A DNA stretch of 63,308 bases, the filler included, from Reticulomyxa filosa (lineage: Eukaryota; Protista; Foraminifera), in NCBI GenBank assembly GCA_000512085.1. It is 8 parts of 8 records of this genome, joined end to end, with 100 filler letters (N's around TTAATTAATTAA, not from the genome) between each part and the next. Parts side by side here need not be neighbours in the genome. Positions count along the whole stretch, not along the records: positions 25,511 to 41,951 come from ASPP01005991.1; positions 42,052 to 46,819 come from ASPP01021806.1; positions 46,920 to 51,235 come from ASPP01013386.1; positions 51,336 to 53,438 come from ASPP01024199.1; positions 53,539 to 60,728 come from ASPP01004689.1; 3 more parts are not named here. One strand, 5' to 3'. Shown piece by piece: positions 32,603-55,903 of the stretch (position 1 is the first letter of the stretch; each line of letters starts with the position of its first letter). Under the pieces are notes generated by a model that ran no database searches, was not told where the DNA came from, and saw only the letters and a program-made list of their open reading frames with translations. The position numbers were made by a program, and so were the translations under genes.

Positions 32603-33679
32603 AGTGAAAAAGAAACTTATCTCGTTTTAGAAAATTGGGTTCGATGTTTGGCAATTGATCGAGGGTGGATTGGGGATTTTAACAAAATTATTGCGCGATA
32701 CGTTCCGTATTTTTTTTTTTAAATCAATTTCTAGTATTAAAGTAAAAAAAAACAAAAACATAAACTCAGTTGAATAAAATAAACAACTGAAAAGGCAAAA
32801 TATTTCAAAGAATCAAAAATATTTCAAGGGCATTCAAGATTTGTAAACTGTGTGAACTTTTCTCCAGATGGTGCAAACATTGTTTCCTCTTCAGATGATA
32901 AAACAGTTCGGATATGGGATGTAAAATCGGGAAGAGAAATAAAAAGACTGAAAGGACATTCCCATTGGATTTCCAACGCCCAATTTTCTCGAAACGGTGA
33001 CATGGTAGTGTCATGTTCAGATGATAATACAATTAGGTTATGGGATGTGAAATCAGGACAAGAATTAAGAAAATTTGAAGGTCATTGGGCTGCTGCTAAA
33101 GGTGTTCAATTTTCACCAAACGGCCACATAATTGCGTCTTGTTCATTGGATACAACAATTCGAATATGGGACATAGAGTCTGGGGAAAATATAAAAACAT
33201 TGGAAGGGCACACAAAAGTAGTGAATGACGTACAATTTTCATCAGATAGTAAATTTATTGTGTCCTCGTCTTTTGATCAAACGGTTGGAATATGGAACGT
33301 AAAATCCGGACAAAGGGAGCAGAAATTGATAGGACATTCAGGTGCTGTGTTAAAAGCACGATTTTCACCAAATGGTCTCGCAATTGCTTCATGTTCGAGT
33401 GATACTACAATTCGGATATGGGATACTGCATCAGGTAGAGAAATACGAAAATTAGAAGGACACATAGATTTGGTAAATGATTTCCAGTTTATGGCAGATG
33501 GGCAAATTATTGCTTCGTGTTCAAGTGACAAAACAATTCGATTGTGGGATGTGAAATCTGGTAAAGAGTTTCAGAGATGGAAAGGACATGCTGTTCCAAT
33601 AACAGGAATAGATATCTCACCAACTGGAAACAAAATTGTATCTTCTTCTGAGGACCGAACTATTCGGTTATGGGGATGA
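32603..33679 (+). CDS. Seven-bladed WD40 protein with an N-terminal GW-box exon (32603-32701); upstream exons unresolved
   Basis: 99-nt exon SEKETYLVLENWVRCLAIDRGWIGDFNKIIARY, intron 32702-32794, then seven GH...WD repeats. Confidence 0.9.
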
Positions 33680-34456
33680 CAAACTTACCTTAGTCAATAA
33701 CAATGTCGAAATTTTTTGTGAAAAAGAAAGTTGATTAGCCGTATGTGCATTTATAGGACGAATGGCTTACTGTAAATTTTGTCAACTTTCTTTTAAGTAG
33801 AGTGTAGTCAAAATAAAAATACTTCAAAGTGAAAAAATCAAACTAATTACTTTAAAATTATTTTCTATTGTCTAACGTTTTACATTTAATGTTTGCTTGA
33901 TTGTTTTGATCTGCAATCGACTTCAAAAAAAAAGCCCCCTAAAATGAACTCGTCAGAAACAAAAAGCCAGTTGCAACAAAGCAATTAATATGAATAAAAT
34001 CAAATGTCAAAAACAAACAAAATGATAACATAGTCGCAGAAAAAAATAACTATTTACAATTGCAAAAAAATACGAAAAAAGGATATATTTCAAATGCTTG
34101 ACACTTTTGCAAACTTTTTTTTAAATGAAAATCAAACATTAGTAAAAAGTCAAAAAATCGATATCCTTGTAAAATGCAGTTTTATGTGTAAATATTTTTG
34201 TCTTTGCGGTATTGATTGTACACCATAAATCCAGTCATTGTTGTTAGTTTATAAAAAAAGAAATATATCTTTTTGTGAGGAAAAAAAATTATTATTCGTA
34301 TTCGATAAATTGAAAGGCCAAGTTTCTTTCTTGTGCACGTATAGCATGTTTCCCACACCCTTTTAAGATATCCATTTATGATTTCAATAATCATATATAA
34401 ATGTGATTCTTTGGCCTTATTGCTTATTTTTGTTGGTACTGTAGTCGAAAGAGAAT

Positions 34457-35630
34457 ATGTCAGTTGGGAAACTTGCAATTGAAACAATGACAACGGATTC
34501 AGCGTTTGAAGTCTTAAGCCCACTTCTGAGACCAGCAGCAATGCCACAATGTGTGGTAATTGGTGACGAAATCGTGATATGTGGAGATAGCACAATGTCA
34601 GGCAGATGTTACTCTTATCATACATCAAAAAAAGATTACCGATTGATCTGCAGTTTTCCAGAGAAACAGATTCGCACGAGATTTACGATGATGAAATGGG
34701 AAAAAAAGAGCAAAAAAGGGAATAAAAAATACACCTTATTTGCGTTTGGAGGAAATTCCTACAACTCGAAAAAAGAAACATTGATGATGAAATATCGAAG
34801 TGTGTGGGAAGAAGAATACGCTGAAAATGAGTGGATACCAGTAGAGCACGCATACAAAAATAGTATCCGATGTGTTGGTGATTACTTTTCTCCGCTTGCA
34901 GTGATTGGTGGAACAAATAACTCATTACTGTTTTTAATTCATCTTCCCAATCACTTTGATGTGATTGACATCAAATCGTTACAAACAGTGACAAATCTGA
35001 CATTGCCTTTTTATGTCAACGGTGATGCTACTATTTTTGTAAAAGGGAGCCAGGAAATGTTGGTGTTCACCCAAGACAACGGAGCATCCATTCAATATGA
35101 TGAAGTTAAAAAAGAGTTTATATATCATGATGTACCTCTTCCGTCTGAACTTACTGGAATAAGACAGTATTGTTTTCTTTGCATTCAAGATGTTGTCATC
35201 GTGTTTGGAGGCTATCATAGCAACTTCATTGCGACTGATCATATTCATTTGTACTTTATCAATACACTGACATGGAAGAAATGTCCTTACTCTTTACCTT
35301 GGCCTATGTTTGGGGGTTTTGCCATTCTCAGTCCTGATCAAAATTGGGTTCATATCATTGGAAGAGATAAGCCTTATTCGGGTTGGGAAAAGCGAGATTT
35401 TGATGACTTCAGACAGCACATACGAATAAGAGTGCGGGAGCTTATTGGGGTTTCGTTGTATATATTCTTTTCTCCATAAATTCTTTAAAATAGAAATAAA
35501 CAAAAAACAGTGGAGCTTGAAAGAGGTCAGAAAGATTGTTGGATTTTGGGTATACCATTCCAAATTGAGAAGATTGGGATGGATTAACGAGTTTTGTGAA
35601 ATTGTTGCCCAATTTGTTGACATTTATTAA
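34457..35630 (+). CDS. Kelch-like beta-propeller protein with a C-terminal GW-box exon (35511-35630)
   Basis: PQCVVIGDEIVICG, CYSYHT, FAFGG, AVIGG, IVFGGY, WKKCPYSLP; phase-0 intron 35450-35510. Confidence 0.8.
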
Positions 35631-35941
35631 CAGTTTTTTAACAACTTTGTTCTGTCCCGACAATGTAGGACACACCTCTTTTTACTAACAGTGTTCAAAA
35701 ATTGGACTACAAGTGTTTTGACATAAAATTTCAGTTGAATAGCTTTGCTTCCCCAAAAGACTTAGTATTTTTGTTCTCCCTTGTGCAATTATGAGTTTAA
35801 ACAAATAAAACAGCCAAATAAAAAAGGATACAATAATCTTTTGTTTTTTTAAAAATGTCGGTCATGGAGAAGCAAGAAAAATATGGCTTAACGTCTCATA
35901 AACATTATAAACCAAATAACAACATAACTCAAAAAAAAAAA

Positions 35942-38546
35942 TTAGTCTTTTTTCTCTAAAAACTCTTGGTATTGTTTTACAAGCGACTCTTGTGCCTGGC
36001 TATCAACAAATTGATGATCTTTGTATTCCATAGTGAATTCTCCCTTACCCTCAGTCAAAGATCTCAAATCGGTAGCATACCCAAACATACGATCCAATGG
36101 ACCATAGGCACGAATAACACAGTTTTTGCCACTGTAGGAGATGCCATTGATAATCATTCCTCGAGTAGACAAATCTCCTACAATAGCTCCTTGATTTGCC
36201 TCTGGGACGCAAATTTCAATATCCATGCACGGTTCACTGACGCGAGAGCCCAGCTCACTAATCAACGATCGAAAACATCCTTGGGCAGCGTTTCGAAAGG
36301 CGAGATCACTGCTATCTACTTCATGAGTGACACCATCTTCCAGCACAATTTTGAGTCCAACAACAGGTCCACCCACCAATGGGCCTTTATCACACAACTC
36401 TTTAAATCCAACTTCGACAGATTTAATAAACTGTGGTGGGATCGCTTGTCCTCGAACATTGTTAATAAAAACAAAAGGTTTAACAGGATTTGGAGTTCCG
36501 TCGACAGGCTCGAAATAGCCAATGATTCTAGCATATTGACCACGACCACCAGTTTGTTTTTTGTGCAAATAGTCAAACGGAACTTTCTTGGTGATGGACT
36601 CGTGATATTTGACACGAGGTTTTCCAGTTTCACATGGGACTTTATATTCTCGTAGAATGCGTTCAATGTAGATATCCAAGTGTAACTCTCCCATACCACT
36701 GAATATACAGCTACCCGTGTGATCGTCAATCTCCACATGGAAAGTGGGATCTTCTTTTACGAATCGTTCAAAGGCTTTGCCAAATGCATCCATATCCGAT
36801 TTATTCTTTGGTTTCACCGCCAATGACACCACAGGATCGGGCACGTGCAGAGGGGATATCACATGAGAGATACGTTCCGTCACTAAAGGTCGTCCCAGAA
36901 GTGCAATCAACACCAAACATAGCACATATATCTCCGGCATGTGCGGTATTGATATCTTGCAACTCATCACTGTGCATACGAACAATTCGAGATAAACGTA
37001 ATTTCTTTCCTTTTTCATTGTTTGGTTGAATTGTCAAGCTTTTTCGCAAAGTTCCTTGATAGACACGAACCCAAGTCAATTGTCCAAAGGGATTTTGTTC
37101 CAATTTGAACGCATAAAATAAAAGTGGATCGGACTTATTTGTTGACAGTGGTACTTTTCGATTTGGGTCATCCTCGCCCTTATTTTTTTTTTTTTTTGTT
37201 TGTTGTCCGTGGTTTCGAATGCATGGAGTATGTACATACATATACACATGGATCAAGCCTACCTTCGTGAGATCAATGGCATAATGAGTCAAGTCCAATG
37301 GCGAAGGTAAATAATCGATCACTCCGTCTAACAGCGTTTGCACACCTTTATTCTTGTATGCGCTGCCCACAAAGACCGGTACGAGCTTGCGTTCAATCGT
37401 CATCGCCCTTATCACATTTTTCAGTGTTGCCTTGTCTGGGAATGTTTCTTCTAAATAGTGTCCTTCCATCTCAGAATTCACCTGTAGGAGTTGCAATGAC
37501 ACCTCAAGTTATTGAATATGTCATAATACTTTTATCATTCTCTAATAATAATAATAAAAAAAGAGAGGGATTAACCTCACCCAACACTTCGAGTAATTTC
37601 AATCGATATTTGTGCACTTGTTCTTTGTAATTCTCTGGAATGCTTGCCTTTCGAATGGTATCACCATGTGCACCATCAAAATAAATCGCAGTTTCTTCAA
37701 TCAAATCAATAAGTCCTTCGTGTGCGTCTTCCACGCCTTTTCATTTTAATTTGTGTTTGACATAATGCTTTTCATATCAGATTTGAATCGAAATTTATAT
37801 GTATGCATTTATACATATACATATACAAAATAAAATAAAATAAAATAATTTCAAAACCGATAGGAATTTGCACCAAAGCACAATGCAGATTCAATTCACT
37901 TCTCAATTCGTCTACTGCTCGATAAGGATTGGCGCCAGTTCGATCGCATTTGTTGACAAAGCAAATGCGTGGGACATTGTATCGTCGCATTTGTCGGTCG
38001 ACTGTGATCGTCTGCGACTGCACTCCACTTGATGCACATACTATCATTATTGCTCCGTCCAATACCTGAAGCGACCTCTCTACTTCAATTGTGAAATCTA
38101 CGTGTCCAGGAGTGTCGATTATGTTTATATGATGCTTCCCCCACTCCGTGTGTGTTGCTGCTGATCGGATTGTTATTCCTTTCTCTCTTTCCAATTCCAT
38201 ACTATCCATTTTTGCTCCCACACCATCTTTCCCACGCACTTCATGCATCTCTCTTATTCGTCCTGAATAAGGAAAGAGGGGAGAAGGGTACAATTTTTCA
38301 TATAATTTCCAGAAATTTCAAGGACAAACACAGAAATTTTTTTTTACCTGTGTAATACAGAATACGTTCAGTGGTGGTTGTCTTCCCAGAGTCGATGTGT
38401 GCAGATATGCCAATGTTTCGAAGCAACGCCAAGTCTTGGGCACTGGCGTACTCAGTTTTTGCCACCGAAGCAAAGTATCGGAATATAGAAGGTGTTCGCA
38501 CTGGGATGTGCGTGAAATGATTGCGCAATAAAGTCGAGAAAAACAT
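35942..38546 (-). CDS. GFM1: Mitochondrial elongation factor G1; multi-exon; one extra base at 36852-36855
   Basis: Presequence-like N-terminus, [82 protein letters not shown]. Confidence 0.95.
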
Positions 38547-39009
38547 TGCTTCTCAATAATCTGTTGCACTTCTAATGGAGACCTTTGGTGGTCAACAGAA
38601 GATCAAGGGAGCCACAAATTTCTTAAAAAAAATAGTTTTTTATCTCTGTCTCCACGACAGTGTTTCCGTAGTGCATTTCGATGTGTTTCATTTATTTACA
38701 AACTTTATGGAACAAAATTAAGCGATACTATCTCCAACATGGTCGATATAAACCAGAAAAACATAAGTTGCCAAGATTTGTTATTTTTTTTTTACCAGAA
38801 CAAATATCAACTGGAAAAACTATTTCCAAACAAAACTTGACAACAAACAAAACAGAAAAAAAAAATCCATAAAAATGTACGTTGAGTAGTAACTACTTTT
38901 TGCCTCTTCTTGTATGCAGCAAAGGCTTTCAGGTGAAGAGAAACCTACGATAATCAGAAACGCCTCCCCTTCCTTAGATCTAAACGCAAATTAAGTTTTT
39001 CTCGAACGA

Positions 39010-41119
39010 TCAGGCCCAGCCTGAGATTTGCGTGTATAATTGTAAAATGGAGCTGATGCCAAAAAACACACCCAAGATTGTGGTGATCCATCGTTGAGAC
39101 AATGATAGTGAGTCGGTCCTCCAAACGACCGCAGCAGGAAAAATGAAGCAGCCTGTGAGGATCCCCCCGATGGCACCATTTGAGACAGCAAAGTCGTATA
39201 TACACATATATGTAAATATAAATATAAAATAAAAAGCACAAAACAAATTGGTAAAGTGGTGGAACCCATTAGTGCATTGACTTGACCAATGTTATCTGCG
39301 ACCAGAGCAACTCCAGCAGCAGACAAAACAAAAGACAGCGTGACGATGATGTGCTGTCTTTCTGGCAGTTGAAACGACATGTTTGCAAAAAAGCTTTTTG
39401 GTGTTCGTGCAGACTGAAGAGCGGTGCTCGTAGGGGGTTGACTTTCGGCCACTTTCTCCTTCGGTGCAGTTGGATTTTGTTCCAAGGAGAGTTGCCCATG
39501 CAAGGCGTGTTCTTTTTCTCTTTCATGCACAACCGCAGCCATTTCAACTTTCGCATCTTCGTTCTTCGCTGTCTCCACGTTTGCGCGATTATTATTTGTG
39601 GCATTGTCTATTTCAGTTTTTTTGGATTCCGGTCCGACGGCTTCTCGGTCCATTTCGACATAACTTCTTCGAACTTCGGCCGGCACTTTCAATGCCCCCA
39701 GAGACCTCTAAAAAAAAAAAAAAAGGAGGTACCCAAATGTCACAAAAAGACGCAGATACATATACGTTACATGTTTTCATAAAAAAAAAAAAAAAAAAGA
39801 CCACTAAACCGATCGAGCAGCAGAAAGTAACAACTCTGCCAACGATTTTCGAAAGGCATGGGCAAATAATGGCACGTCACTGATGACGTAGAGGGACAAC
39901 AGGATCATGGCAGCCAGCATGGCCTTGTTCTTTCCATAGTCGGAAGACAGTAAGTTGGGTTGCACCGATTGCGGGAATGTAAAGTATCCAAAATAGGCAA
40001 CGGAAAGATATAAGAAGAATGAGAATCCATAACTGTACATCATACTTTTCTTTAATCGCTCAATTCCTCTGTCTTTCATTTCAAAATATATTGGCAAAAA
40101 GGTTGGTTGCGCTGCAAATCCACCGGCCATCAGGACAATCGCATACGTATGCTAATGCAAAAAAAAAAAACATACGTATACATATATACATACATGTATG
40201 TATGTGTAATATGCATATATGTATCTATAATTAACACAAATGATTAGGTACATGCATACACATTATACGTAATTCATTAAAAAAAAAAAACAAAACTTGC
40301 AGGAAATCATTAGTTGCTGCATTCAAATGTGAGACACTTTGTGCAAAACATTTGCGATTGTGTTCAGTGGCAGTGGAGTTGCACCAATCGAAATAAATGC
40401 CGGTGACAACAGCGGCAGTATAAATCAAAAAGGCAAGGCCTGCCATTGAGTTGTAACGCAATTCACTCATTCGTCGGAACAGCGATAATGGTATTACAAT
40501 GATGATAACACAAAGTGGCAATAGCACGTATTCGCTGTCCCATACACCGTTGTGACTTGATCCGGCGATAATACGGATCGCCGGAATCAGCAATGTTTTC
40601 ACTAACGTCATGTACGATACACATGCACTCCACAACAAACCTATCAATGTACATTGGATCGCTATTGCTACTCGATCTCCATACAATTTCTCGCCCAGAC
40701 GTCGAAAACTACGGCAATTGTTCAGTTCGCAACATCTTGCCAGTATTAGTACTACATATGCACAGCTCCAGCCACAAAACAATAAATAAAATAGGCCCAT
40801 TACTGTTCCGCATTGTCTGGGGTTATTGTTTGTTTTTTTTTTCCCTCAGTATTGATTTGTACCTCACCGCTTTGTTTGCTTACACATACGTCTTACTCTT
40901 TTCTTTCTCCCTCCTATCTCTCGTTTTCCAAAAGGGTTGGAATAGACCCCGTTATAACACAAACGATTATCCGTACTTTATTGCATAAGACAGCGTCAGA
41001 GTCCCCGGACCTACCATGCCTGATATCATCTCAAAGGTCGAAGCCTCCAAAGATCCAGGCGTTGGATTTAAAAACTCGAGGCTTTCGCCAATCTTCGTCC
41101 ACCAAGAAGTAGAAGCCAT
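39010..41119 (-). CDS. Amino acid/auxin permease (AAAP/SLC38-like) transporter, multi-exon
   Basis: STFEMISGMVGPGTLTLSYAIK|QCG, IIVIPLSLFRRMSELRYNS, FAAQPTFLPIYFEMK, YFGYFTF, LMGSTTLPI, CFIFPA. Confidence 0.88.
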
Positions 41120-41394
41120 CTTTGCCAGAAGTAAAGCTCAAACAACTTTTTAAACTGGCCCACTTAAAAAAAAAAAGAGCAATATTTCATGTTATAATAG
41201 CAGCACGCGTATCCCACTGCTTTATAAACAAGACATGTCCTTGTTTTATGTTAGTATTATCGTCTTTTTGCGAAAAAAAGTTTCTGTTTTCCTTACAGGT
41301 GGCTGTCAAGTTATTTTTTTTTCCACGTGATTAGTAGTATTTAACTGAAGTTATACCAATATATCAGCGTTTTTTTTGCGTTTCAACAATCAAA

Positions 41395-41907
41395 ATGACT
41401 GAGTCTCCTCTCGAAGAAGAAAAGTGTAACGACAGTATCAGCAATGTAATCGTGCGCGAAGTAATAAGTAGCGAGAAGCTGTTCCGTGAGCATCCACCAA
41501 AATTCACGAACAAGAATAAGCAATATTTGTGGGAAAAGTGTGTGAAGATTTATAATAAAGAAGAGAGTGAAGCAACGAATAGCAAACGCATAGATTTGGT
41601 CTATGCAAGGTATGCAGTACAAGCGCACGAAGCATTGAAAGCGGTGACAAGCCCAAAAAGTTTCATCGAAAATAATATGTCAGTGAAAGAGGACATTTAC
41701 GACTACGTACGAATAGAAGCAAAAGACACGTACGAGTTTTACGTGAACTTTGCAGATGCCAATTTGTTTGGCTTTTACGCGGGACCGTTGTTTGCTCAAG
41801 ACGAAGTGATGACAATGGAGCATCCTGTCCTCTGTTCGTTGAGAGAAGGGCTACTGACCCGCACTGCATGCGATGATGAAAGGATCAAAAGTATGTTTTC
41901 TACGTAA
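41395..41907 (+). CDS. PARG-like macrodomain protein, 3' part lost at the spacer
   Basis: FYVNFADANLFGFYAGPLFAQDEVMTMEHPVL aligns with the PARG loop VDFAN...GGG...VQEEI...PEL. Confidence 0.55.
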   Translation: MTESPLEEEKCNDSISNVIVREVISSEKLFREHPPKFTNKNKQYLWEKCVKIYNKEESEATNSKRIDLVYARYAVQAHEALKAVTSPKSFIENNMSVKEDIYDYVRIEAKDTYEFYVNFADANLFGFYAGPLFAQDEVMTMEHPVLCSLREGLLTRTACDDERIKSMFST

Positions 41908-41916
41908 TTTTATTTC

Positions 41917-41951
<35 letters not shown>

Positions 41952-42747: not shown

Positions 42748-44848
42748 CTAAAACGAAGATTCGTTATGTTCATGTAACTCTTCGTTTAATTCTTTTGCCC
42801 TTATTTTTGCTGCTAGTGTTTCTTCATGGCATTCTCCCAGTAATGCACTGTATCTCTTCCAAGCCTCTTCATAGTATTTGTAAGCTTTTTCCTTTTCTCC
42901 TTTTCCGTTAAACACAATTGCTAAATTCCAGCATGAATCACCAATATCTCTGTTTGCATTTTTAAATGTCTCCATCCGTATCTTTAGCGATTTCTCATAG
43001 CACTCTATTGATCCTTCATCCCCTTTACATTGATAGGAAATCCCTAAATTATGGTATAATTGAGCAACAAAAGCGTAATTGACTCCAAATATTTTCAATG
43101 CTATATCGAGTGCTTTTTCAAAGAATTGAATTGCAGTGTCATATTCCCCTTTATCATTGTATGTAATGGCAAGCAAATTGTATGCAATGGCGACATAAGG
43201 ATGATCCAATCCAAATGTGTCAGCACAAATTTTCAAATATTTTTGTAAATGAAGGAGAGAGGTGTTAAACAGACATTTCTCTGAACATTTTTCCTCTTCG
43301 CATTCAAGATCTTGAAGTTGCGCCGGAATGTCATAATGCATTTTCGTATTCCATTGGATGGGAGAAGGGATGGATAGCTCCAACTTTTGATCAACGATAG
43401 TATTTTTTGTGACAAACAGTTGTGTTGTAATGCACACATTTCTTTTGCATTGAAGTCTGCAATTGATGACATATGCATTTCCATCTACACTCACTTCATC
43501 CAATGTTATTACATTTCCTTTGATAACATACAAAAAGTAATGTCCAATTTGTTTCTTTTCAATTTGTTTATAATTCAATAAAGAAGAAAGATGGCCATCA
43601 TTAAAGACAAGGATCAATCCTCGTTCATTATCTTTCATCATTTGCTCGACCACTTTTGCAGCCTCCATATTTGCCTTTCTCCAATATCTGTCCCAATGTC
43701 TCTTAAAATCCAAAGTTTCTATGGCGTTGTCTGTCAGTTGCGAAAGTTTGTCATTGATATCGTTATCACATGTTTTTGGAATCAAACAAATATCAAACTC
43801 TTTGCTCAAAGCCATTTTAGCAAGTCCCTTTTCGAATAATGGACCAAGTATTGCATTAGCGACTTGTTGGATGACAACATTCAAACTCGTGTTCATATTG
43901 CTTTGAAGAGTGTGACAAAAAACTTGGGTGAAATAACTGCACCTTTTTTCATTTTGATTTTCTAAATTGTCGATATTTGGCTTTTGTAAAGTATTCGCAA
44001 ATATTGTTAATACATTTGTATCTTTTTGTTGATCGATTTGAATCCCATGATTACTTTCGTCTTGTTTGCCATTTTCTTGTTCATCACATATCACCATACA
44101 TATTTTGGGCTTCTTTTCGAAATAACCAGTTTTTATATCAATTTCGTGTTGAATGTCTTTGATATCTTTGGTTTTATTGTCACTGGTGATTACATTGGGG
44201 CCATTGCTTCCAAACTCTCCATGTCCGCACCACACAAATATCAATCCATCATACATATTGTTGTGATTACAATCACTGGCGACATCAACATGATCGGAAA
44301 TGAAATCAATTAGGTCTTTCAAAGTCAATGATTCTACATTTGGGTTTTGGATGTTACAAGTGCTAAACACTTGATAACCAAAGTTCGTTTGGAATAACGA
44401 TTGCAACAAATGAAGATCTTGCATTACACTTTTTAAATATGATCGTTGCTCATATTTCAACGCTCCTGCCAGTAACACCAATGGATATTTCATTTCATAC
44501 AATGACGGTGATCGTAATTGTTCATTTGTTTTCCCTGTTAATTTTGTGCATCGTTTTTTTTTTTTTTTTTTTTTTTTTTGTTGAAATTGTACAATGGAAA
44601 GTCAAAAACAAAAAACCTTGAAAATAAGCCTTGAAATCAAGCTGACCACATTCAACACACTTTTGAAGCTGTTGTTCTGTTTCAATGTCACATTCATTAC
44701 CGTCAGTCACTTTAACTAAAACGTTACCTTGTTGGTCGTGCGTACTGACTTCGATGATCTGTTGTTTTAGGATTTCAATTGTCAATTTTGTCAATTCAAC
44801 CCGATATTTTTTTGTCCCGATTGTCACGAAAGCTTGCAAGGTTGACAT
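42748..44848 (-). CDS. PB1/ubiquitin-like, caspase-like (C14 fold), unknown middle domain and TPR repeat protein (2 exons)
   Basis: Exon 1: KYRVELTKLTIEILKQQI...VTDGNECDIETEQQL. Exon 2: PLVLLAGALKY, DLHLLQSLFQTNFGYQV, YDGLIFVWCGHG, KKPKICMVIC, SYFTQVFC. TPRs: GLDHPYVAIAYNLLAITYNDKGEYDTAIQFFEKAL. Confidence 0.8.
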
Positions 44849-45213: not shown

Positions 45214-46758
45214 TTATTTCGTGTCAGGCATAGTTAATGTAGTGTCCTTAAGATTTCCTTTCTGTGTTATCGCAGATATCTTTCCAACAGCTTCCATTGT
45301 TTTAACATTTTGATTACTTCTATTCTTGCGAGGTGAATCCGGTAGTAATGCTTTAACGTTTTTTTGCTCATTCGTTTTAACAGGAATACTAACCACTGCT
45401 TTTGGCTGCACTTTCGAACTTGAGCATTTGTTAAGATTGGTTGATAACATTGACAATGTTTTGTCATGAACGACTGACGAACTAAATCGTCGAGGTGCTG
45501 GAGAAACACTACAAGTGGATTTTTCAGCACGATCAACACGATTGGCATTAATTTTCGAATTGATATGGCCAAAGCTGGTTTGTTTGACTATATTTTGCGA
45601 TTTTGTTAAGGGCAAAGATTTGAGCGAAGTTGAATGGCATAACTTTGCACGTTTGTTTGTTGGAAAAATATTTGGCGTGATGGAAGGAAATAGCACAACG
45701 TCATCTTTTTTTTCCTTGCGTGCCGACGGGGAACTAACAAGTGAGTTTTCATCCGTTCGTAATTGTGAACTTTCTGTCGACATGAGGTGTTGATGAGACA
45801 TCTTTTCATCATCAATCCTGTCCATCTGGCCATGGGTTGGCTGAATTTGTTTCTCAATATGTTTTTGATTGTTATTATTGCCGTTGTTGTTCTTTTGTAG
45901 TTTTTCTTTTTCTTCCACTTTTTCTTTTTCAACTTGTTTCGGTTTAGTTGTGGGAGTTTTCACAACTTGGTTTGACTTAACAACATTAACTTCAGAAATT
46001 TTCGTAATGATAGAAGTTTCATTTTTTTTCAAAACATTGGGTCGGCGAGACAAAGAGGAAGAAGGAGGGCGCACTATCGCAGCACTATGTCGTCTTGTCC
46101 TTTTTGCGTCTGCCACTGATGTCTGTTTGGAAAGAGAGGGGGAATTAGTACTAGGTTGAATAAAAGAGGAAGTTTTGTTTACAGCTGATGACAACGTAGA
46201 TGTTGTTGTTGTTGCAATAACCATTGCTGATGGCAATGAACTACGTTTCTTTGGAAGATCGTGACTTTGCTTTTTTTCGACAGTCGCAATAGCTTTTCGT
46301 TTTGTATTCACCACCAATGTGTCGGTAGTTTTGGTTGACACCGGTTTTGGTGTATTCACCTTGGCTGACATTTGGATCTTTGTCTGTGTCTCTGCAAACA
46401 AAGCGCTGGAAGACACTTTGTTTGCAGAGAAGTTACCCAAACCTGTGGGTTTGGAATAGCCGTGAGCCAAAGATACAGCATTTGTTTTGCTTGTCTTGGC
46501 AGTTGCTTGTTCTTTTTTCAACTTGACAGAAGAAGAAGGGAGGACCACTTTTTTTTTTTTTTTTTTGTTTGTGGAAGAGACAGTCGAATTTGCGTGCAGT
46601 GAATTTCTTCGGACTTTCGATGACATTTGTGCGGTCGTGTTTTGTTGCTTATCTGCAAGGGTCTGTGTTTTCCTTGTTGTTGTCATTGCTATCAATGGCA
46701 CACTGTTTTTTCGTTGTTTCTTTTCTGCATTCATTTCTATTCCTTTCGCCGTGGTCAT
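45214..46758 (-). CDS. Ser/Thr/Lys-rich low-complexity protein, probably 5' truncated
   Basis: 514-aa open frame in AT-rich DNA; no recognisable domain. Confidence 0.55.
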   Translation of the reverse strand: MTTAKGIEMNAEKKQRKNSVPLIAMTTTRKTQTLADKQQNTTAQMSSKVRRNSLHANSTVSSTNKKKKKKVVLPSSSVKLKKEQATAKTSKTNAVSLAHGYSKPTGLGNFSANKVSSSALFAETQTKIQMSAKVNTPKPVSTKTTDTLVVNTKRKAIATVEKKQSHDLPKKRSSLPSAMVIATTTTSTLSSAVNKTSSFIQPSTNSPSLSKQTSVADAKRTRRHSAAIVRPPSSSLSRRPNVLKKNETSIITKISEVNVVKSNQVVKTPTTKPKQVEKEKVEEKEKLQKNNNGNNNNQKHIEKQIQPTHGQMDRIDDEKMSHQHLMSTESSQLRTDENSLVSSPSARKEKKDDVVLFPSITPNIFPTNKRAKLCHSTSLKSLPLTKSQNIVKQTSFGHINSKINANRVDRAEKSTCSVSPAPRRFSSSVVHDKTLSMLSTNLNKCSSSKVQPKAVVSIPVKTNEQKNVKALLPDSPRKNRSNQNVKTMEAVGKISAITQKGNLKDTTLTMPDTK

Positions 46759-46819
46759 TGTTTTTGCGTTTATTTTTTTTTTCTCTCCGACTTGTTCTAA
46801 TTTTTTTTCCCCCCCCCCC

Positions 46820-46919
46820 NNNNNNNNNNNNNNNNNNNNNNNNNNNNNNNNNNNNNNNNNNNNTTAATTAATTAANNNNNNNNNNNNNNNNNNNNNNNNN
46901 NNNNNNNNNNNNNNNNNNN
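46820..46919. other. Artificial contig spacer
   Basis: 44N-TTAATTAATTAA-44N. Confidence 0.99.
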
Positions 46920-47822
46920 AAAAAAAAAAAAAAAAAATCAATAAATAACATGACACCTGATGCGAGTTCAAATTCAAATTGTCTTGTTGTTGTTTTAGAA
47001 GTTGATTCTTTAACACAGAGTTATCATTGAGTAATCTTGCAATTTGTTCATCTTTTTTCCCGTTTAATTGTGCCTGCAGTTTTAGCATTTCATTTTCCAG
47101 TTGCAATTGTCTCGTCTCTTCCTATTTTGCAAGCAAAGCTTTAACTTATTTCAGAATATGCTCCCTCAGAAAGTAAAGAATGGATGCACCTGACCAAGTT
47201 GAATGGAATGCTGTAACGACTCAACTTTCTTAATCACTAAATCAAAATGATGTTTTATGTTCGAAACCAAGTGACAATTCAATTCATTTTTTAAACATGA
47301 ATAATTACATCCAAATAATTTAAACCAACAATTTGAGAGTCTCAAAAAACATGAATTCTCTATGTGCTCCTTTACATCTTTTATTTTTCCTTTGAAGTCA
47401 CACACAGCAGCTCCAGATGTTTGCCCGGCTCTATTTCTTCCAAACTTTTGCAAGTCTTGTTGAAATTGCAGTGGACATGTTATGCACAAATCATTAATAA
47501 GGCGCTGCAGTGGTTTTGTTTTGCTGTACCGACAGCCGTCATGAGGTTGAACGGGGCAAGTATTATTGTTATCTTTGAGAAATTGCTTCAAGCAATTTTC
47601 CCCAACAATTAATGATTCATTCATGTCCTCGTGTTCAGGGCAACTAATCTCAAGTGGATTGTTGGCAACCTGCTTACAAATTAAGCAAATAAAATAATTA
47701 ATATTTTCTTGTCGGTTCGACTGTAAAATCCAACACTTATCAAAACACGACGACTGTTCAAGAGAATCCGGATCCACTCCAGTTTTAAAATCTTCCACAT
47801 TTTTGTATTCTACTTTTTCCAT
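46920..47822 (-). CDS. RING-like + TRAF-type zinc-finger + coiled-coil protein, 3' truncated
   Basis: [21 protein letters not shown]...GENCLKQFL...TCPVQPH; ITCP...[18 protein letters not shown]; [12 protein letters not shown]...[13 protein letters not shown]; coiled-coil exon [14 protein letters not shown]. Confidence 0.8.
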
Positions 47823-48679
47823 GTTGATATTCTCTTTGTTTGTTTAATATTGAATTTCAAATATTATTAATTTCGGTAAAGATCTCTTTTGCTGTTGTCG
47901 AGTTTTTGGGAAAAACCTATAAAACTTTGCTTGCTTAAAGAGCAATGGAACGTTAAACGTAATTTTATAGCAATATTATTATAATATAAAACATTTTATT
48001 CGTTTTCGGCTAAGAGGATATAGATTTAGCCACCAACACAGGTGAACAGATTTTTACCAGTTTCGTGAATTTTGACACATTTTTTTTGAAATGGGCCAAA
48101 CAAAGCAAAATTTGTACTTAAGGTTAAGGTTTTTCCTTTTTTTGTTGTGAACTGCGGTAGATACTGAAGCGAAGACTACACGGGAAAAAAAGAGAAAATT
48201 TCAGTTCAAAAATGTAAACTTGTGATTGTAAAAATTTTGTCTTGCGTTTTGGATATATCTATAATATTATCATTTTGTTTGAAAAGAGAGTTCCAAAAAT
48301 GCAGCGACTTATAAGTAACGTTGTCTGGGCTCTTTACAATATCCAATTTTTCAAAGTCAATGCATGATTATTCATCCAATAAAATGTGAAAGCCATTTTA
48401 TTGACTTAAATTTCATAACAAAGATACAAAGAAAGAAGTAGTTTGTAGACAATTGCTGTTGCAATGTAAAAAACCACTGTTATTGGATGTACGACTACCA
48501 TTTGTAGTAAACAAAGTTATTCAATATCTTTTTGTTGATTAATTGGCGTAGACACAACAAATAAGATATTATTGAATTGTTAGACTTAATATCACAGACA
48601 AAAGTGAAAAAAAAAGACAATTCCTTTGAATCAATAAATTAAAATATTTTCCATCTGAACAACAATATTGATATGTTGT

Positions 48680-48826
48680 AAAGATAATATTATTCGTTTA
48701 TGGGACATACAATTAAGAATGAAAATACAAGGATTAGAAGGACATTTAGAGAGAATAAAAGGATTTGATATTTCATCAGATGGAGATGTTATTGTATCAT
48801 TTTCTGATTATAAGCAACGAAAGTAG
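48680..48826 (+). pseudogene. WD40 gene relic (last blade), same style as 32603-33679
   Basis: KDNIIRLWDIQLRMKIQGLEGHLERIKGFDISSDGDVIVSFSD; upstream frames are broken. Confidence 0.7.
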
Positions 48827-48969
48827 TGAGTGGTAAACTGATTATGATATCACCTTTCAACAAAGAAATAAATAGGTAATCTATTTGAGATTTTTTTTCT
48901 TTTGAATTATCTTTGGAAAATTTCATAATTATCAAATAAAAATAAAAATCAAAACATAGTTAATTTATT

Positions 48970-50042
48970 TTATCTGCTATATCTAATAATCATTTTATCA
49001 AAATCATCAATCCATCCTAAATTTATCTTTAAAATTCCAATCCAATATTGAATAGTAAATTTTATTTCTTTTTTTGACTGTTCACAATTTATTATTTAAT
49101 ATTTAATATTTATTTGTCAATTCGTTTCATCAAAACAAATAAATAAACAAATCATTGCCAACAGTGAAGGATCTCATATACGCACTTCAGTCTTCATGTG
49201 AGTTGATACTGTTGTATTTTTATCATCATCTCCTCCAATGATGTGTAGATAATTATCTTCTTCACTCAGTATTGCAGCACAATGATATAATGGACCAGGT
49301 AAAGCGTTTTGAAACGTAGTCCATTTGTTTTCTCGAATCGAATACTTTTATACTGATTTTGAAGCAGTATCTTTATGAATATTCCATCCACCAAATAACA
49401 AGATGATATCATTGATACACACATATGTATATCCACTGAATATTGAAATATCCTTACAAACAGATAGTTTATGAAATTGAAAAGTGTTATTATCTTCATC
49501 ATATTTAATTGATAATCCTGTATCTTTACAAAACAACAGCATTTAATAATTTTGTTTATTTATTTTCATCATTTCTTATTCTTGTCCATTTTCTGACCTT
49601 GATACAAAGCAATGATAATTAATATTATTCTTAGCTGATAAAATATCATGTTTAATAAATTGAAATGTATTTAAATCAAATACACTAATATTATCTCTTT
49701 GATAAATGATAAATAACAAATTATTGTTGAGTCCACCAATTATTGCACGCGCTCCATAATAATTATCATTATCTGTGATTGTCTACAAAAGGGACCCATC
49801 CATATAATTTAACATCAATTGAATAGTCACAGATAAGCTTGTATTCGTTTTTGATTGTATGATAAGAGTAACAAGCTCTTTTGTTCCAACCACCACAAAT
49901 GAGGAGTTCGTGTTTATGTAGCGCATATTGAGGATTAGAAAGTGGATTGGGCAATTTCTTTAAAATTTGAAAGGTTTTTAAAAAAGGGTAATTTGACCAG
50001 GAAGACAAAAATTACGATCAGATTACAATATTGATTGTGCAT
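48970..50042 (-). pseudogene. Kelch-like propeller pseudogene with a C-terminal GW-box exon (49077..48970)
   Basis: Homologous to 34457 (ELLICGG...CYSYHTIKNEYKLIC, ARAIIGG, ILLFGGW). TAA at 49578, 49545 and 49350; TGA at 49176; internal deletion plus frameshift; GC donor at 49158. Confidence 0.85.
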
Positions 50043-50447
50043 TTTTAAAAGTAAAAAAGTCTTTGGGACATCTCAAATGTGATAGCCAGATTGAAAAAAA
50101 ATCACACAAGTTATTTTATGAATGTAATTCTTAGGTGATAATAATTATTTCTTATTTAAGTATTAAGTTTTTATTTTTAATCTTTTGCTGCAATTACATT
50201 TTTAAATTGTTTGAATTTATTTTATGTGTGAAATGATATCTGTTTTTTACAAAGGAAACAAATTCTTAATCTTATTACATTTACATACAAAAAGAAAATA
50301 AACTGCTAAAACATAAAAGCAACAAAACTTCTCAATATTAAGAATAATTTATGTTTGACAGCACTTTTTCATTGATTTTGAAAGAAAAGAGCTCAAACAT
50401 TTTTCATCTTGCATCATCTAAGACTACCCCAAAAAGAAAAAAAAAGA

Positions 50448-51235
50448 ATGACCACTCAAAGCAATGAAAAACAAGCTTCAATACAACCAGTATTAGTAAG
50501 CTTTATTTCAATGTTTCAAAAAATTTATTGCTTTTATCATATTTATTTTATTTGTGACTTATGGTTAAACCAGTTAGAAGAAGATATCCAAGTGATTATT
50601 TGGAATTGGATTCGAATATTAAATATTAAATTAGGATGGGTCAATGATCTTGATAAACTTGTTTCCAATTATGTTATGTTTTATTTTCATTCAATCACAA
50701 ATGTATATTTGTTTACAATATTTATTATTACATTCTAAACACAGACAGGAATCTTCTTCATGCTTGATACATTTCGTTCATCATCCAAATTAATTAATAC
50801 ATTCAATGGACATACTGATATTGTGTGTAGCATTGATTATTCAACATTTGATTGTAGTCAATTTATTTGTTCTGGATCATACGATAAAACAGTTCGTATA
50901 TGGGATATTGATAACAACAAACAAATTCAATCATTCAATGGACATTCATCTTTTGTGCATTGTGTGAAATTTTCACCATATCATTATCATAATTATCGTC
51001 AAAATGTCATTTGTTCTTCATCAAGTGACAGCACCATTTGTTTTTGGGATTTCAAACATAATAAACAATTACAAATATTTAGTGAACACACTGATGGTGT
51101 TTGTGGTATTGAATTTTCACCATTTAATTATGGTAGATATTTGTGTTCTGTATCGCATGACAACACTATTTGTTTATGGGATGTTGAAACATCAACACCA
51201 TTACATATTTTCAATGGACATACAAGTACCGTTTG
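50448..51235 (+). CDS. WD40 protein with an N-terminal GW-box exon (50574-50672), truncated by the spacer
   Basis: Exons 50448-50495, 50574-50672 and 50745 onward, all phase 0; repeats GHTDIVCSIDYS, GHSSFVHCVKFS and others. Confidence 0.9.
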
Positions 51236-51335
51236 NNNNNNNNNNNNNNNNNNNNNNNNNNNNNNNNNNNNNNNNNNNNTTAATTAATTAANNNNNNNNN
51301 NNNNNNNNNNNNNNNNNNNNNNNNNNNNNNNNNNN
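51236..51335. other. Artificial contig spacer
   Basis: 44N-TTAATTAATTAA-44N. Confidence 0.99.
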
Positions 51336-53438
51336 AAAAAAAAAAAAAAATGTACAAAGATAATATCGAAACTAACTGCTGAATTTTGATTTGATCCAAT
51401 TTATTGATATTCGTTATTTGTGATATTGCAATTGTTAGAATATTCATTATAATTGACAAAACGTTGATATATTTATAATAAATATATTTATATTTTATTT
51501 ATATGTATATATTTTCTTTATTAATATTGTTTAATATTTATTTTGTTGTTGCATTAGTCATCTTCGTCGATTTTGATATTTAATACATTTTCATTTTCGA
51601 TCGATATTGTCTTTTGTTGTTATATAATGAATAATATTTTTATTAACTCAATTTTATAATTTTTTATTTTTATTTTTATTTTTATATAATAAATATAGAT
51701 AACCAATCAATTACTTGTATTATCTATAAAAAATACTTTTATATTTAATTAATGTTTTCATCAATAATTGACATTATATTCAAGTCACTATCATGTTTAT
51801 AGACACTTTCTACATGATATTGCAAGTCTCCTGCAATATAAATATGACTGTATATATTCAGTATGGACATTCGAAATTGATCTATATGCTCTCGATTTGA
51901 TATTTGACTTTAAATTGTCATTTGCATTCAGCGAGAATCACGATTCAAATCAAATATTGTATTTTTTTTCACTTTATAATGCTAATTTAATCTTTGAACA
52001 ATCTTTGTGCAAATTTCGATTTCGATCGTTAACAATAATTTTATTTCAAATATATTTTTATATTTATATACTCATATACATTATTTTTCTTTACACAAAT
52101 TTCATCTTCTCTTTATGTTATGAATTTTCTTTTGTAGACAACTATCAATTCATTACTTATTCGATTGGATTTGTCGTGATGGATTTTGCATTGTGGTAGT
52201 ATTGTAAATTGTAGTTGTTATTTCGTGTTATTGTGTATCATTCTGCAATATTGGAATTGATGGGTAGAGTTTGCTTTCTTGTGGTGAGTGATAATTACGA
52301 ATTTCGAACTATTAAAAAAAACATAAGCAAGACCTTTGTTTTTATGATTTTTTTCCGTTGGTTATTTTGGTCTCGAAAAGGTAAAATTGTTTTTCTTTTA
52401 AAAAAAAGATATGATGCAAATTTCAAAATCTTATTAAAATTTATTTTCCTCTACAAAAAAAAGGTGTTACTAGAATTTGAAACAGAGACTTCACAGAATG
52501 TAAAGAAGAAAAGGATATTGCAGAAACATTTCTGGAATAACCAACTTTGGACTATCCTTTTAAGCCGAAACTTACAACAAACAATACTTGAAGACCCTTG
52601 GAGAGAACGTTTTTGTTGAAACGTTGAACGTAAAATTTAACGAGTTGGAAACAATTATCAAGCAACAATTCCAAGTATTCAATGTAATTCTAAAGTATTG
52701 AGATGTTCTCATCAAAATAGAATATATTGAAAAATAAGTTTGTTCCAAATCTCCGGAAAGCTATAATGACTTTAATAACAAGAAGTATTACTTAATAATG
52801 AATCTAATTTCTCAAGCAGCTGGATGATCTTTTTTTGGCAAAAAAAACAAACTTAAAAAATTTATTGTCATATTTTTAAATACTGTTTACTTTTTGATCC
52901 AATTAACTTTTTCATTATAATTTTTTCTTTTCATGCTTGTTTAGAGCAGTGTGTCTTTTGTCATATCTCTTTTTTTTTGAAATATTTCCAGAGCACATTC
53001 CTCCATTTTTTTTACAAATTGATTTTTATGTTATCATTTTCAATTATTGAGAACAAAAAACGGGCTATCAACAAAAAAACCCAAAAATCCGACACGAACC
53101 AATTATTTCCACATATATTTTTTCAATTATCTGTTAGCATGGAAAAAGGCTGATTCAACAATGAAATGGAGAGATGTTCACAACAAATTAATGAAAGAGC
53201 AAAATATTTCACAAAGCAAAGCCACCAAATATCTGTATTATTTTCTTTGAGAAGCCACCAAACACAGTTACAGAACCGGTTCGACGCGCGCGCACGTGTG
53301 TGTGCATAATGTGCACAAGTTATTTTTTCAAGGATTTATTGTTGGCACTAAGTTGTTGAATGATGGCCCTATGATAAGCCGCGATTTGCACACACAACAA
53401 CAAAATTAACACCTAAAAAAAAAAAGGGGGGGGGGGGG

Positions 53439-53538
53439 NNNNNNNNNNNNNNNNNNNNNNNNNNNNNNNNNNNNNNNNNNNNTTAATTAATTAANNNNNN
53501 NNNNNNNNNNNNNNNNNNNNNNNNNNNNNNNNNNNNNN
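53439..53538. other. Artificial contig spacer
   Basis: 44N-TTAATTAATTAA-44N. Confidence 0.99.
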
Positions 53539-53610
53539 TATTACTTTATGAAGTGATTGATATATAATTTTAATCCAAGAAATCAGAAATGATTTGAATG
53601 ATTATTATCA

Positions 53611-54258
53611 TTATTTGTAATATTCATAAATATAATTTTTAATATTTTGTCTTTGAAATCCAATTACATTAAATTTCCTTAATTTATTATCCAAATATGA
53701 ACATATTGCATTAGGAAGACTTGCCATAAGTATAAAATAATTTGGATTTACAGTACAATGTTGTAACCATTGTTTCAAAACTGGCTTTTTTGTATTCAAT
53801 TCATTTTCAATTTCATCAAATCAATCAAATACCAACAACAGTTCATTCTTTTCATTCACTACACATTTTGTGTAATCTGTATTCCATTGTGGAATATTCA
53901 ATTCTTTTATTATCTTTGACCATTGTCCTTCCATGTTATCATCGTTTTTGTTCATTTCTTTTTCAAATATATTTGCAATTTTCTTCAAAGGAATTTGCAA
54001 TAATAATTCAAATCTATCATTCCACATTTGTTTGCATAGATATGCAATCTTTTGTACAAATATACTTTTTCCAGTTCCTGCTTCACCATGGATACTAATA
54101 TAACGAACTTCTAATTCTTTTTCTTTTCTTCCTCTTCTTCTTTCTCTTCAACTTCTTTATCCTCAGCGTCTGCTGTTTTTTTATTTTCCAAATATCTTCT
54201 AATTCTGTTGTTTTTTGCTGAGTATAAATCAATGAATAGTCCATTGTGTTTAGCCATT
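53611..54258 (-). pseudogene. NACHT-type (STAND) NTPase pseudogene or fragment
   Basis: One frame from 54120: VRYISIHGEAGTGKS (Walker A)...FELLLQIPLKKI...LLLVFD*FDEI (Walker B, TGA at 53823)...FILMASLP...FNVIGFQRQNIKNYI; frameshift near 54120. Confidence 0.85.
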
Positions 54259-54538
54259 TTTCATTATTTTTATTATTTCTTTTTCGGATCAGTCGAACAG
54301 GACAGTGTTATATGAGTGAAATTTGATTTAATTTTTTATTTCAATAAGTATGAATATTTACAAATGGTGACAGACTGTTAATGTATTATTATATACTCAA
54401 CATATTTTTTTATCCAATTATCATTTAAAATCAAGTTATTATTCACATTTGCCTATGCTATTCTTTCCTTTTTTTAGTTCTCTGTCCCTTCGTTGGTCTT
54501 GCGAGAAAAAAGTTCATCTAAGACCAGCTTAAAAAGAA

Positions 54539-55903
54539 ATGATCGCCCATAGCAAGGAAAAACAAACCCCAACACGACCAGTATTGGTAAGCTTTCATTT
54601 CAACCTTTCAAAAAAACTAATTGTTTTTAGGTTTTTATTGTACTTGTCAATTAAACCAGTTAGAAGAAGAGGTCCAAATAATTATCCAACATTGGATTCG
54701 AACATTAAAGATCAAATTAGGATGGATCAATAATTTTGACAAAATTATTGTCAATTATGTTATGTTTTTTTATTATTTTCATTTAACCACAAATGTATAT
54801 GTGCTAATTACAATGTAACACAGATAAGTACATTCATCATGCTTGACACATTTCTATCATCATCTGAATTAATCAATACATTCACTGGACATACTCATTA
54901 TGTATGGAGTATTGATTATTCAGAATTTGATAGTTGTCAATTCATTTGTTCTGCATCAGAAGATAAAACAATTCGTGTATGGGATGTTGATAATAACAAA
55001 CAAATTCAATTATTCGATTTATACTTAGACGAAGTGTATTGTGTAAAATTTTCACCTTATCATTATCATAATAATCATCAAAATATCATTTGTTTTTCAT
55101 CACAGAACAACAGCATTCGTTTTTGGGATTTTGAACATAATCAACAATTGCAATCATTCAAACAACACACTAACTGGGCTGGTGCAATTGAATTTTCACC
55201 ATTTAGTGGGGGTAGATATTTGTGTTCTGGATCACATGATAACAAAATTCGTTTATGTGATGTTGAAACATACAAAACATTACATGTTTTCGATGGACAT
55301 ACACAATGGGTTTGGTGTGTGGATATTTCACCATTGCAAAGTAACAACAACAGCAATAATGAAAGTAATAATATTGGTGTGATTGGTGGTAATGGATATA
55401 CAATTTGTTCTGGATCATTTGATAAAACCATTCGAACATGGGATATTGAAACAACTAAAAAATTAACTTTATTCAAAGGACATACAGATTATGTGAAGAG
55501 TGTAAAATATGGATCAAATGCATTAGCAAATACAATATTATCTGGATCAAATGATAAAAGTGTCCGTTTGTGGGATACTCGATCTGGTAAACAAATTCAA
55601 GTATTCAATGGACATTCAAAGATGATAAATAATGCTGAATATTCACCATTTGTAATTAAGAATAGTAGTAAAGTAGTTGATGGCAATTCAAATGTGATAT
55701 GTTCTGTATCAGATGATAATACAATTCGATTTTGGGATATTCGATCAAATAAGAATGAATTGTATGTGATTGAAGGAGATAAAAAGGATGAAGGAATAAT
55801 ATGTATTAAATTCGTATTATTAAAAAAGAAAGTAAAGAACAATAATCGCAATGTTCATTTATTTTATGGTTCATGTGGAGGCCCAATTCGTGTTTGGGGG
55901 TGA
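54539..55903 (+). CDS. WD40 protein with an N-terminal GW-box exon (54660-54758); complete paralog of 50448
   Basis: Exons 54539-54586, 54660-54758 and 54824-55903, all phase 0; about 7 WD repeats ending PIRVWG*. Confidence 0.92.

What the first reader, a model, noticed from the sequence alone, without database searches (positions are those of the whole stretch)
32603..54758. Portable ~33-codon 'GW-box' exon shared by WD40 (N-terminal) and Kelch-like (C-terminal) propellers: candidate new ubiquitin-ligase adaptor system
Seen, five copies on three contigs: 32603-32701 SEKETYLVLENWVRCLAIDRGWIGDFNKIIARY; 50574-50672 LEEDIQVIIWNWIRILNIKLGWVNDLDKLVSNY; 54660-54758 LEEEVQIIIQHWIRTLKIKLGWINNFDKIIVNY; 35511-35630 WSLKEVRKIVGFWVYHSKLRRLGWINEFCEIVAQFVDIY*; 49077..48970 SKKEIKFTIQYWIGILKINLGWIDDFDKMIIRYSR*. 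Each starts right after an AG in phase 0. In all three WD40 genes it is an exactly 99-nt phase 0-0 exon, even across two very different WD40 subfamilies. In the Kelch-like genes it is the last exon. Established: symmetric exons are the units of exon shuffling, and cullin-RING substrate receptors pair a short helical box (F-box, SOCS/BC box) with WD40 or Kelch propellers. The core W-h-x-D-F-x-K-h-h-x-x-Y is in register with F-box LPxEhxxxIhxY. Inference: a shuffled docking module that plugs a large, fast-evolving library of propeller receptors into one common partner, plausibly for defence or non-self recognition. I know no named domain for it.
Basis: partly seen in the sequence, partly recalled or inferred. 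Interest (0 to 1): 0.85.

Follow-up and report, generated by a model that had tools for sequence, protein, structure and literature searches.

The report
Shared helical dock on foram propellers
A 33-residue segment, predicted to form two helices, is attached to hundreds of WD40 and Kelch propeller proteins of the foraminiferan Reticulomyxa filosa and likely plugs this large receptor library into one shared partner, most likely (untested) the ubiquitin-ligase adaptor DDB1.

Summary
The motif is real: five copies at the stated coordinates, an exact 99-nt phase 0-0 exon in the three WD40 genes and the last exon in the two Kelch genes. One Kelch host (49077) is a pseudogene. Database hits identify Reticulomyxa filosa; 260 of 303 fetched proteins carry the box, as Kelch-box, box-WD40, Kelch-box-WD40 and Kelch-coil-box-WD40. 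No named hit came from another species. No Pfam or PDB family matches it. AlphaFold gives helix-loop-helix, outside both propellers, at pLDDT 30-35. The box is mostly inherited with its partner (nearest box in the same class for 165 of 188), so a few propeller swaps plus mass duplication fit better than a hopping exon; phase 0 is common here anyway. The best fit is a DDB1-docking helix-loop-helix as in DCAFs: same size and position, the H-box L-x-x-R/K pair in 153 of 218, two WDxR motifs in 14 of 18 type-1 WD40 partners. Binding was not tested. New variant of a known kind; interest 0.62.

The parts
32459..32512 (+). Inferred 18-codon leader exon of gene A (phase-0 donor)
   Evidence: ATG to GTAATT donor, 90-nt intron; ends like the leader of P0237; inferred
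32603..32701 (+). Box exon of gene A, 99 nt, phase 0-0
32795..33679 (+). Type-2 WD40 exon, seven repeats, open frame
   Evidence: Pfam WD40, 7 stretches; stop
34457..35449 (+). Divergent Kelch-like propeller exon of gene D
   Evidence: weak Pfam Kelch hits; aligns with the family; phase-0 donor
35511..35630 (+). Box as last exon of gene D (34-residue core variant)
   Evidence: annotated as P0004
48970..49077 (-). Box as last exon of Kelch pseudogene E
49159..50011 (-). Broken Kelch exon of gene E: frameshift near 49780, stops at 49578, 49545, 49350, 49176, GC donor
50448..50495 (+). 16-codon leader exon of gene B
50574..50672 (+). Box exon of gene B, 99 nt, phase 0-0
50745..51235 (+). Type-1 WD40 exon of gene B, cut by the contig end
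54539..54586 (+). 16-codon leader exon of gene C
54660..54758 (+). Box exon of gene C, 99 nt, phase 0-0
54824..55903 (+). Type-1 WD40 exon of gene C, open frame, two WDxR motifs

Best explanation
The box is a conserved 33-residue segment, predicted to form a helix-loop-helix, that sits next to hundreds of R. filosa WD40 and Kelch propellers and likely docks them into the DDB1 adaptor of a CUL4 ubiquitin ligase, as the helix-loop-helix of DCAF receptors does. Shown: sequence, exon layout in five genes, family size, architectures, inheritance with the partner. Predicted: two helices, not part of either propeller. Inferred: the helices would order on binding a partner; a propeller's two ends lie close together, so a box before a WD40 or after a Kelch would reach the same face and leave the top face free for substrates; the variable propellers would pick targets for degradation. 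Inferred history: a few joins or swaps of propeller exons at the phase-0 introns around the box, then mass duplication and decay. What the targets are (own proteins, prey, parasites) is open.
For: AF2 of a Kelch-box-WD40 protein (P0142): helices 343-356 and 364-374 at pLDDT 30-35 between propellers whose cores score mostly 85-98, first WD40 strand at 380. Core W12, R14, G21, W22, I23, F26, Y33 kept in 197-216 of 218 unique boxes across unrelated partners. DCAF1's DDB1-binding helix-loop-helix spans 30 residues just N-terminal of its WD40 (PMC6821201, passages); such motifs share structure but very little sequence (PMC13061254, passages), which fits the lack of a profile hit. The two DCAF1 H-box residues needed for DDB1 binding, L1054 and R1057 (PMC3928422, passages), have counterparts L16 and K/R19 in 153 of 218 boxes; in that register the DCAF1 H-box scores in the top 3.6% of background 13-mers and top 1.9% of its shuffles. 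Type-1 partners carry two WDxR motifs in 14 of 18, at least one in 17 of 18. DDB1 complexes are ancestral in eukaryotes, elongin complexes younger (PMC2785787, passages). Recalled, not from a call: several H-boxes end in a basic residue, Leu, Gly. Gene C stays open where about 8 stops would be expected under neutrality.
Against: The H-box register was chosen after the fact and is only second best of 21; one H-box was scored. No DCAF chain aligned into the box among the top 60 rows of either box-plus-first-strand profile search. WDxR is rare in type-2 partners (one motif in 4 of 18 BW2, 1 of 10 KBW2, 0 of 5 KcBW2), and WDxR is neither universal nor a direct DDB1 contact. DCAF5 (8tl6_B) aligns from model residue 359, but WDR5 and WDR33 do too and that region is low-confidence. 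Folded alone the box gives one long helix. I know no Kelch DCAF with a C-terminal helix-loop-helix (recall). The box is only 6-8 points more conserved than its propeller, and dN/dS between genes B and C is about 0.7 in box and WD40 alike. DDB1 and CUL4 of R. filosa were not fetched.
Confidence: 0.4

Rival explanations
1. The box docks into a lineage-specific adaptor or scaffold that is not DDB1, for example a diverged Skp1 or Elongin C paralogue on a diverged cullin, or a non-ligase signalling hub; this would be a new docking system.
For: No Pfam, PDB or Atlas family; named hits only from R. filosa; two near-invariant Trp and a GW turn unlike any signature tested; protists in other groups have highly divergent cullins (PMC2785787, passages); Kelch plus C-terminal docking box is the KLHDC10 layout, reported in stramenopiles and alveolates (PMC10591846, passages).
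Against: No candidate partner was identified; size, position and the L/K pair are explained by the DCAF reading without a new partner.
Confidence: 0.25
2. The box is a degenerate LisH-like dimerisation hairpin that pairs Kelch-box and box-WD40 proteins in many combinations; the Kelch-box-WD40 fusions would mirror such pairs.
For: LisH is about 34 residues, a two-helix hairpin that pairs between chains, and occurs with WD40 (WDR26) and Kelch (muskelin) propellers in the CTLH ligase (PMC12648486, PMC9180843, passages). Helix 1 has a capping box and hydrophobic spacing like LisH helix 1, and a Gly-aromatic turn follows (recalled consensus).
Against: Recalled LisH helix-2 signature absent: T/S in 1, A in 0, E in 2 of 218; Gly lies four residues later; no Pfam LisH hit in two alignment scans of 22 and 24 members; no CTLH or CRA segment follows, since 47 of 65 Kelch-box proteins end within 4 residues.
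Confidence: 0.15
3. The box is a degenerate or permuted F-box, or a BC/Cul2-box, binding ordinary Skp1 or Elongin BC.
For: Helix 2 has the hydrophobic spacing of F-box helix 1: in 2 of 6 giant-virus F-boxes the best-scoring 12-mer is in that register (top 1.5-1.6% of background, not significant after scanning). The C-terminal position in Kelch proteins matches KLHDC10.
Against: Pro at the L-P position 0 of 218; BC-box Cys 0 of 218; S/T/P before the first hydrophobic 2 of 218 (BC-box signature recalled). hhalign probability 0.3 against the six F-boxes, a small template. No Pfam F-box or SOCS hit.
Confidence: 0.1
4. The box is not a protein dock but a cationic, Trp-rich amphipathic membrane- or lipid-binding tag, or a passenger exon carried along in a largely decaying gene family.
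For: Basic and aromatic composition; single amphipathic helix when folded alone; introns of genes B and C are as alike as their exons (78-88% versus 77-80%); one of five hosts is a pseudogene.
Against: Seven near-invariant positions across three unrelated partner folds argue for a specific interface; dN/dS of boxes between classes is 0.24-0.31 in three of four comparisons.
Confidence: 0.1

Closest known systems
DCAF substrate receptors of CRL4 (H-box helix-loop-helix plus WD40; DCAF1, DCAF5, DDB2)
   Same: About 30-residue helix-loop-helix directly N-terminal of a WD40; L-x-x-basic pair; two WDxR motifs in type-1 partners.
   Different: Hundreds of copies in one species; also C-terminal on Kelch propellers and between two propellers; own exon; near-invariant W..GW core; no sequence-level match; DDB1 binding untested.
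KLHDC2/3/10 CRL2 receptors (Kelch plus C-terminal BC-box and Cul2-box)
   Same: Kelch propeller with a short helical box at the very C-terminus.
   Different: BC-box Cys and the L-P are absent; two predicted helices rather than three; the same box also leads WD40 proteins.
F-box proteins (FBXW, F-box-Kelch) of SCF
   Same: Works like: short helical tag plus WD40 or Kelch reader; helix-2 spacing resembles F-box helix 1.
   Different: No Pro, no following helices, C-terminal use, no profile match.
LisH proteins (LIS1, TBL1, muskelin, WDR26; CTLH/GID ligase)
   Same: Length, two helices, association with WD40 and Kelch.
   Different: Helix-2 signature missing, longer turn, no CTLH-CRA.

Membership tests
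DCAF (CRL4 receptor) | Helix-loop-helix of about 30 residues directly before the WD40 | tested here: met
   Predicted helices 343-356 and 364-374, WD40 from 380, low pLDDT; DCAF1 layout
DCAF (CRL4 receptor) | H-box Leu and basic residue three apart | tested here: inconclusive
   L16 plus K/R19 in 153 of 218; register picked after the fact, second best of 21
DCAF (CRL4 receptor) | WDxR motifs in the propeller (common, not universal) | tested here: inconclusive
   Two in 14 of 18 type-1 partners; rare in type-2 partners
DCAF (CRL4 receptor) | Binds the DDB1 BPA-BPC cleft | not tested
F-box | L-P at the start of helix 1 | tested here: not met
   Pro in 0 of 218
F-box | Further helices after helix 1 (40-50 residue domain) | tested here: not met
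   47 of 65 Kelch-box proteins end within 4 residues of Y33
F-box | Profile match | tested here: inconclusive
   No Pfam hit; hhalign 0.3 against only six F-boxes
F-box | Binds Skp1 | not tested
   Stand-in Skp1 sequences fetched but not folded
BC-box / SOCS / Cul2-box | (S/T/P)LxxxCxxx-hydrophobic helix (signature recalled) | tested here: not met
   Cys 0 of 218, S/T/P 2 of 218 in the best-fitting register
BC-box / SOCS / Cul2-box | Binds Elongin C | not tested
   One stand-in fetched, not folded
LisH | Helix-2 signature T/S-A..F..E after G-aromatic (recalled) | tested here: not met
   1, 0 and 2 of 218
LisH | Antiparallel dimer of hairpins | tested here: inconclusive
   See Tried and rejected
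Shuffled symmetric exon | Borders coincide with phase 0-0 introns | tested here: met
   Three of three WD40 genes in the window
Shuffled symmetric exon | Same borders genome-wide | not testable with these tools
   No genome held; intron read-through in annotated proteins suggests the 3' border sits about two codons later in the Kelch-coil-box-WD40 class
Shuffled symmetric exon | Moves independently of its neighbours | tested here: not met
   Nearest box in the same class for 165 of 188, shuffled mean 53, maximum 76

The most novel reading that the evidence does not exclude
R. filosa has built a library of several hundred to more than a thousand ubiquitin-ligase receptors on one unnamed exon-encoded dock that works from either end of two different propeller folds, including the first Kelch-type DDB1 receptors or an adaptor unknown so far, and it sits among NACHT, TRAF, TPR and caspase-like families as a protist innate-immune or surveillance arsenal.
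Probability: 0.3. Interest if true: 0.85.

Novelty: new variant of a known kind. Interest (0 to 1): 0.62.

Why it matters
If the box docks on DDB1, it is a far larger CRL4 receptor set than the 49 high-confidence human ones (PMC13061254, passages), the first used on Kelch propellers and from the C-terminus, and a compact transferable degrader tag. If the partner is something else, it points to an unknown adaptor. Either way it gives one testable handle on a large share of the WD40 and Kelch genes of this foraminiferan, now annotated only as hypothetical or repeat proteins. I found no description in print: full-text searches for Reticulomyxa with WD40 and expansion, kelch (32), F-box (47), pseudogenes and gene families (63), cullin (86), lineage-specific expansion and propeller (100) and immune terms (101) listed nothing on it, judged from listings. 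The genome paper and most subscription papers are not in that library.

Tried and rejected
Homodimer prediction of the box, two copies: no answer, score 0.02 against a mark of 0.32; my alignment was not used and no controls were run; no evidence either way. RNA runs: none was listed, so splicing was not checked on reads. No whole genome held. Box-only AF2 gave one continuous helix and its Foldseek search listed nothing. Fold searches of the full model returned WD40 chains only; absent families are not excluded. PDB profile searches with the box: 0 hits and 2 chance hits at E 0.47 and 1.8. Atlas: no feature hit; the top structural row for P0013 was a 55-member Foraminifera WD40 cluster, the rest generic helices. 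Viral contigs: 48 pattern hits, none confirmed. Metagenome pattern: 4 hits, all in closed frames, chance. P0303 (E 3.5) is an unrelated repeat protein. Pfam FBA_2 on one box (E 0.077, 1 of 24) taken as chance. No LisH template found in two virus records. An alternative genetic code for gene E was rejected: neighbouring genes end in TAA and TGA, and the gene also has a frameshift. Earlier-findings look-ups returned nothing. The original H-box paper is not held; the HLH alignment in PMC13061254 is a figure I could not see, and its one supplement held no such sequences under my search terms. PMC12475580 (passages) names Reticulomyxa only in a species list.
Full report
Observation. The window is a chain of contigs joined by spacers. 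The five peptides are exactly as reported, each after an AG; the three WD40 copies are 99 nt and end at GT. Held-out copies score 15-61 bits against a background under 10. Genes B and C have a 48-nt leader, the box and one WD40 exon, with phase-0 introns of 65-78 nt; gene A is the same with an inferred 54-nt leader; gene D is one Kelch exon plus the box. Gene E is broken by four stops, a frameshift and a GC donor. Every recognisable full WD40 or Kelch gene in the window has a box; a short WD40 remnant at 48565-48808 has none.

Source and family. All 43 hits of the first box search are Reticulomyxa filosa, including this window's own genes B and D. A Kelch profile gave 573 hits; the 120 listed are all R. 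filosa, 78 have the box, and 31 of the other 42 end in what looks like intron read-through, so their box exon was probably missed by annotation. The full-library search found 213 clusters at 50% identity; 150 were listed, 63 were not, and 20 of 20 looked up are R. filosa. A divergent-box profile gave 36 R. filosa proteins of 37. So no homologue outside this species was seen, but short-motif searches are weak and the unlisted hits are unknown. Of 303 proteins fetched, 260 carry 262 boxes: Kelch-box 79, box-WD40 type 1 75, type 2 38, Kelch-box-WD40 16, Kelch-coil-box with or without WD40 12, box without a recognised partner 42 (the set is biased by my queries and many gene models are faulty). 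Some add TRAF-type or other N-terminal domains, and some Kelch proteins continue into a caspase domain with no box.

Is it a hopping exon? The nearest neighbour of a box has the same architecture in 165 of 188 cases (shuffled mean 53, maximum 76). In a tree of 31 type-2 WD40 domains the 11 Kelch-box-WD40 members form one clade (SH-aLRT 100) inside box-WD40 genes, and the Kelch-coil-box-WD40 members lie on the other side of a branch at 99. In a tree of 69 Kelch domains (31 of 66 Kelch-box and 8 of 44 Kelch-only rows sampled, plus the window exon) the same fusion proteins are mixed with Kelch-box and Kelch-caspase proteins, with weak support. Propeller exons were therefore joined or swapped at the box borders a few times, then duplicated. 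Symmetry is weak evidence: 8 of 14 junctions I could place by eye in four housekeeping genes are phase 0 (some junctions skipped).

Selection. Genes B and C differ as much in exons (77-80%) as in introns (78-88%), with dN/dS 0.74 for the box and 0.67 for WD40, yet gene C has no stop where about 8 are expected if neutral. This fits a live, fast-evolving family with decaying members. The box is only 6-8 points more conserved than its propeller within classes, but seven positions are held in 197-216 of 218 unique boxes across all classes.

Structure. AF2 on P0142 (52-row alignment) gives two confident propellers and, between them, helices 343-356 and 364-374 at pLDDT 30-35: the box is not a propeller blade and has no confident packing in the chain. 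Alone it is modelled as one helix. Pfam, PDB profiles and the Atlas name no family.

Which dock? F-box: Pro absent in all 218, no room for later helices in 47 of 65 Kelch-box proteins, no profile match to six fetched F-boxes. BC-box and LisH: recalled signature residues are absent. DCAF helix-loop-helix: papers read in passages describe a 30-residue motif just before the WD40 that enters the DDB1 cleft, has very low sequence similarity between receptors, and in DCAF1 needs L1054 and R1057. The box has that size and place, L16 with K/R19 in 153 of 218, and type-1 partners have two WDxR motifs in 14 of 18. DDB1 ligases are ancestral in eukaryotes. Against this: the register is post hoc and second best, no DCAF aligned into the box by sequence, type-2 partners mostly lack WDxR, and binding is untested.

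Mechanism. I put about 0.8 on a protein-docking module that couples a propeller library to a partner, split as DDB1 0.40, unknown adaptor 0.25, self-association 0.15, with ordinary Skp1 or Elongin 0.10 and membrane tag or passenger 0.10 as the remainder. It works like a cullin-RING receptor tag; it is not filed as an F-box, BC-box or LisH, and DCAF membership is open. A defence role is inference only, helped by NACHT, TRAF, TPR and caspase-like neighbours in the window.

Verdict. Real, unnamed in the resources searched, so far species-restricted; new variant of a known kind; interest 0.62.

Noticed in passing
window 48565-48808 (+): Decayed WD40 remnant, 55-68% identical to the C-terminus of P0302, with a frameshift and stops; no box beside it.
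   Followed up: partly
window 47843-46980 (-): TRAF-type zinc-finger gene with a phase-0 intron; its relative P0302 is annotated as a TRAF-Kelch-coil-box-WD40 fusion.
   Followed up: partly
window 53824-54147 (-): NACHT NTPase fragment, divergent from gene C (Pfam E 1.7e-6); P0253 is annotated with NACHT and a box in one model, possibly a gene-model artefact.
   Followed up: no
window 42751-44601 (-): 617-codon frame with TPR repeats and a region similar to the caspase domain of P0134.
   Followed up: no
P0290, P0299 (fetched proteins): N-terminal region that looks ADP-ribosyltransferase-like by eye, fused to Kelch-coil-box(-WD40); not tested.
   Followed up: no
P0108, P0134, P0116, P0118, P0130, P0106: Kelch propellers that continue into an acidic linker and helical region in place of the box, with a caspase domain in P0134: the same reader wired to another output.
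   Followed up: partly
L005:1036-1536; L016, L019-L021, L024; L025-L030: Viral-contig records carry an Elongin C-like gene, Skp1-like genes, and in one giant-virus bin (G003) Skp1 together with six F-box-like genes.
   Followed up: no
window 150-2200 (-), 17806-18473 (-), 26038-28879 (+), 35945-38500 (-): Housekeeping genes resembling a GSK3 kinase, an adaptor-complex sigma chain, V-ATPase subunit a and elongation factor G (named by eye), used only for intron phases.
   Followed up: partly
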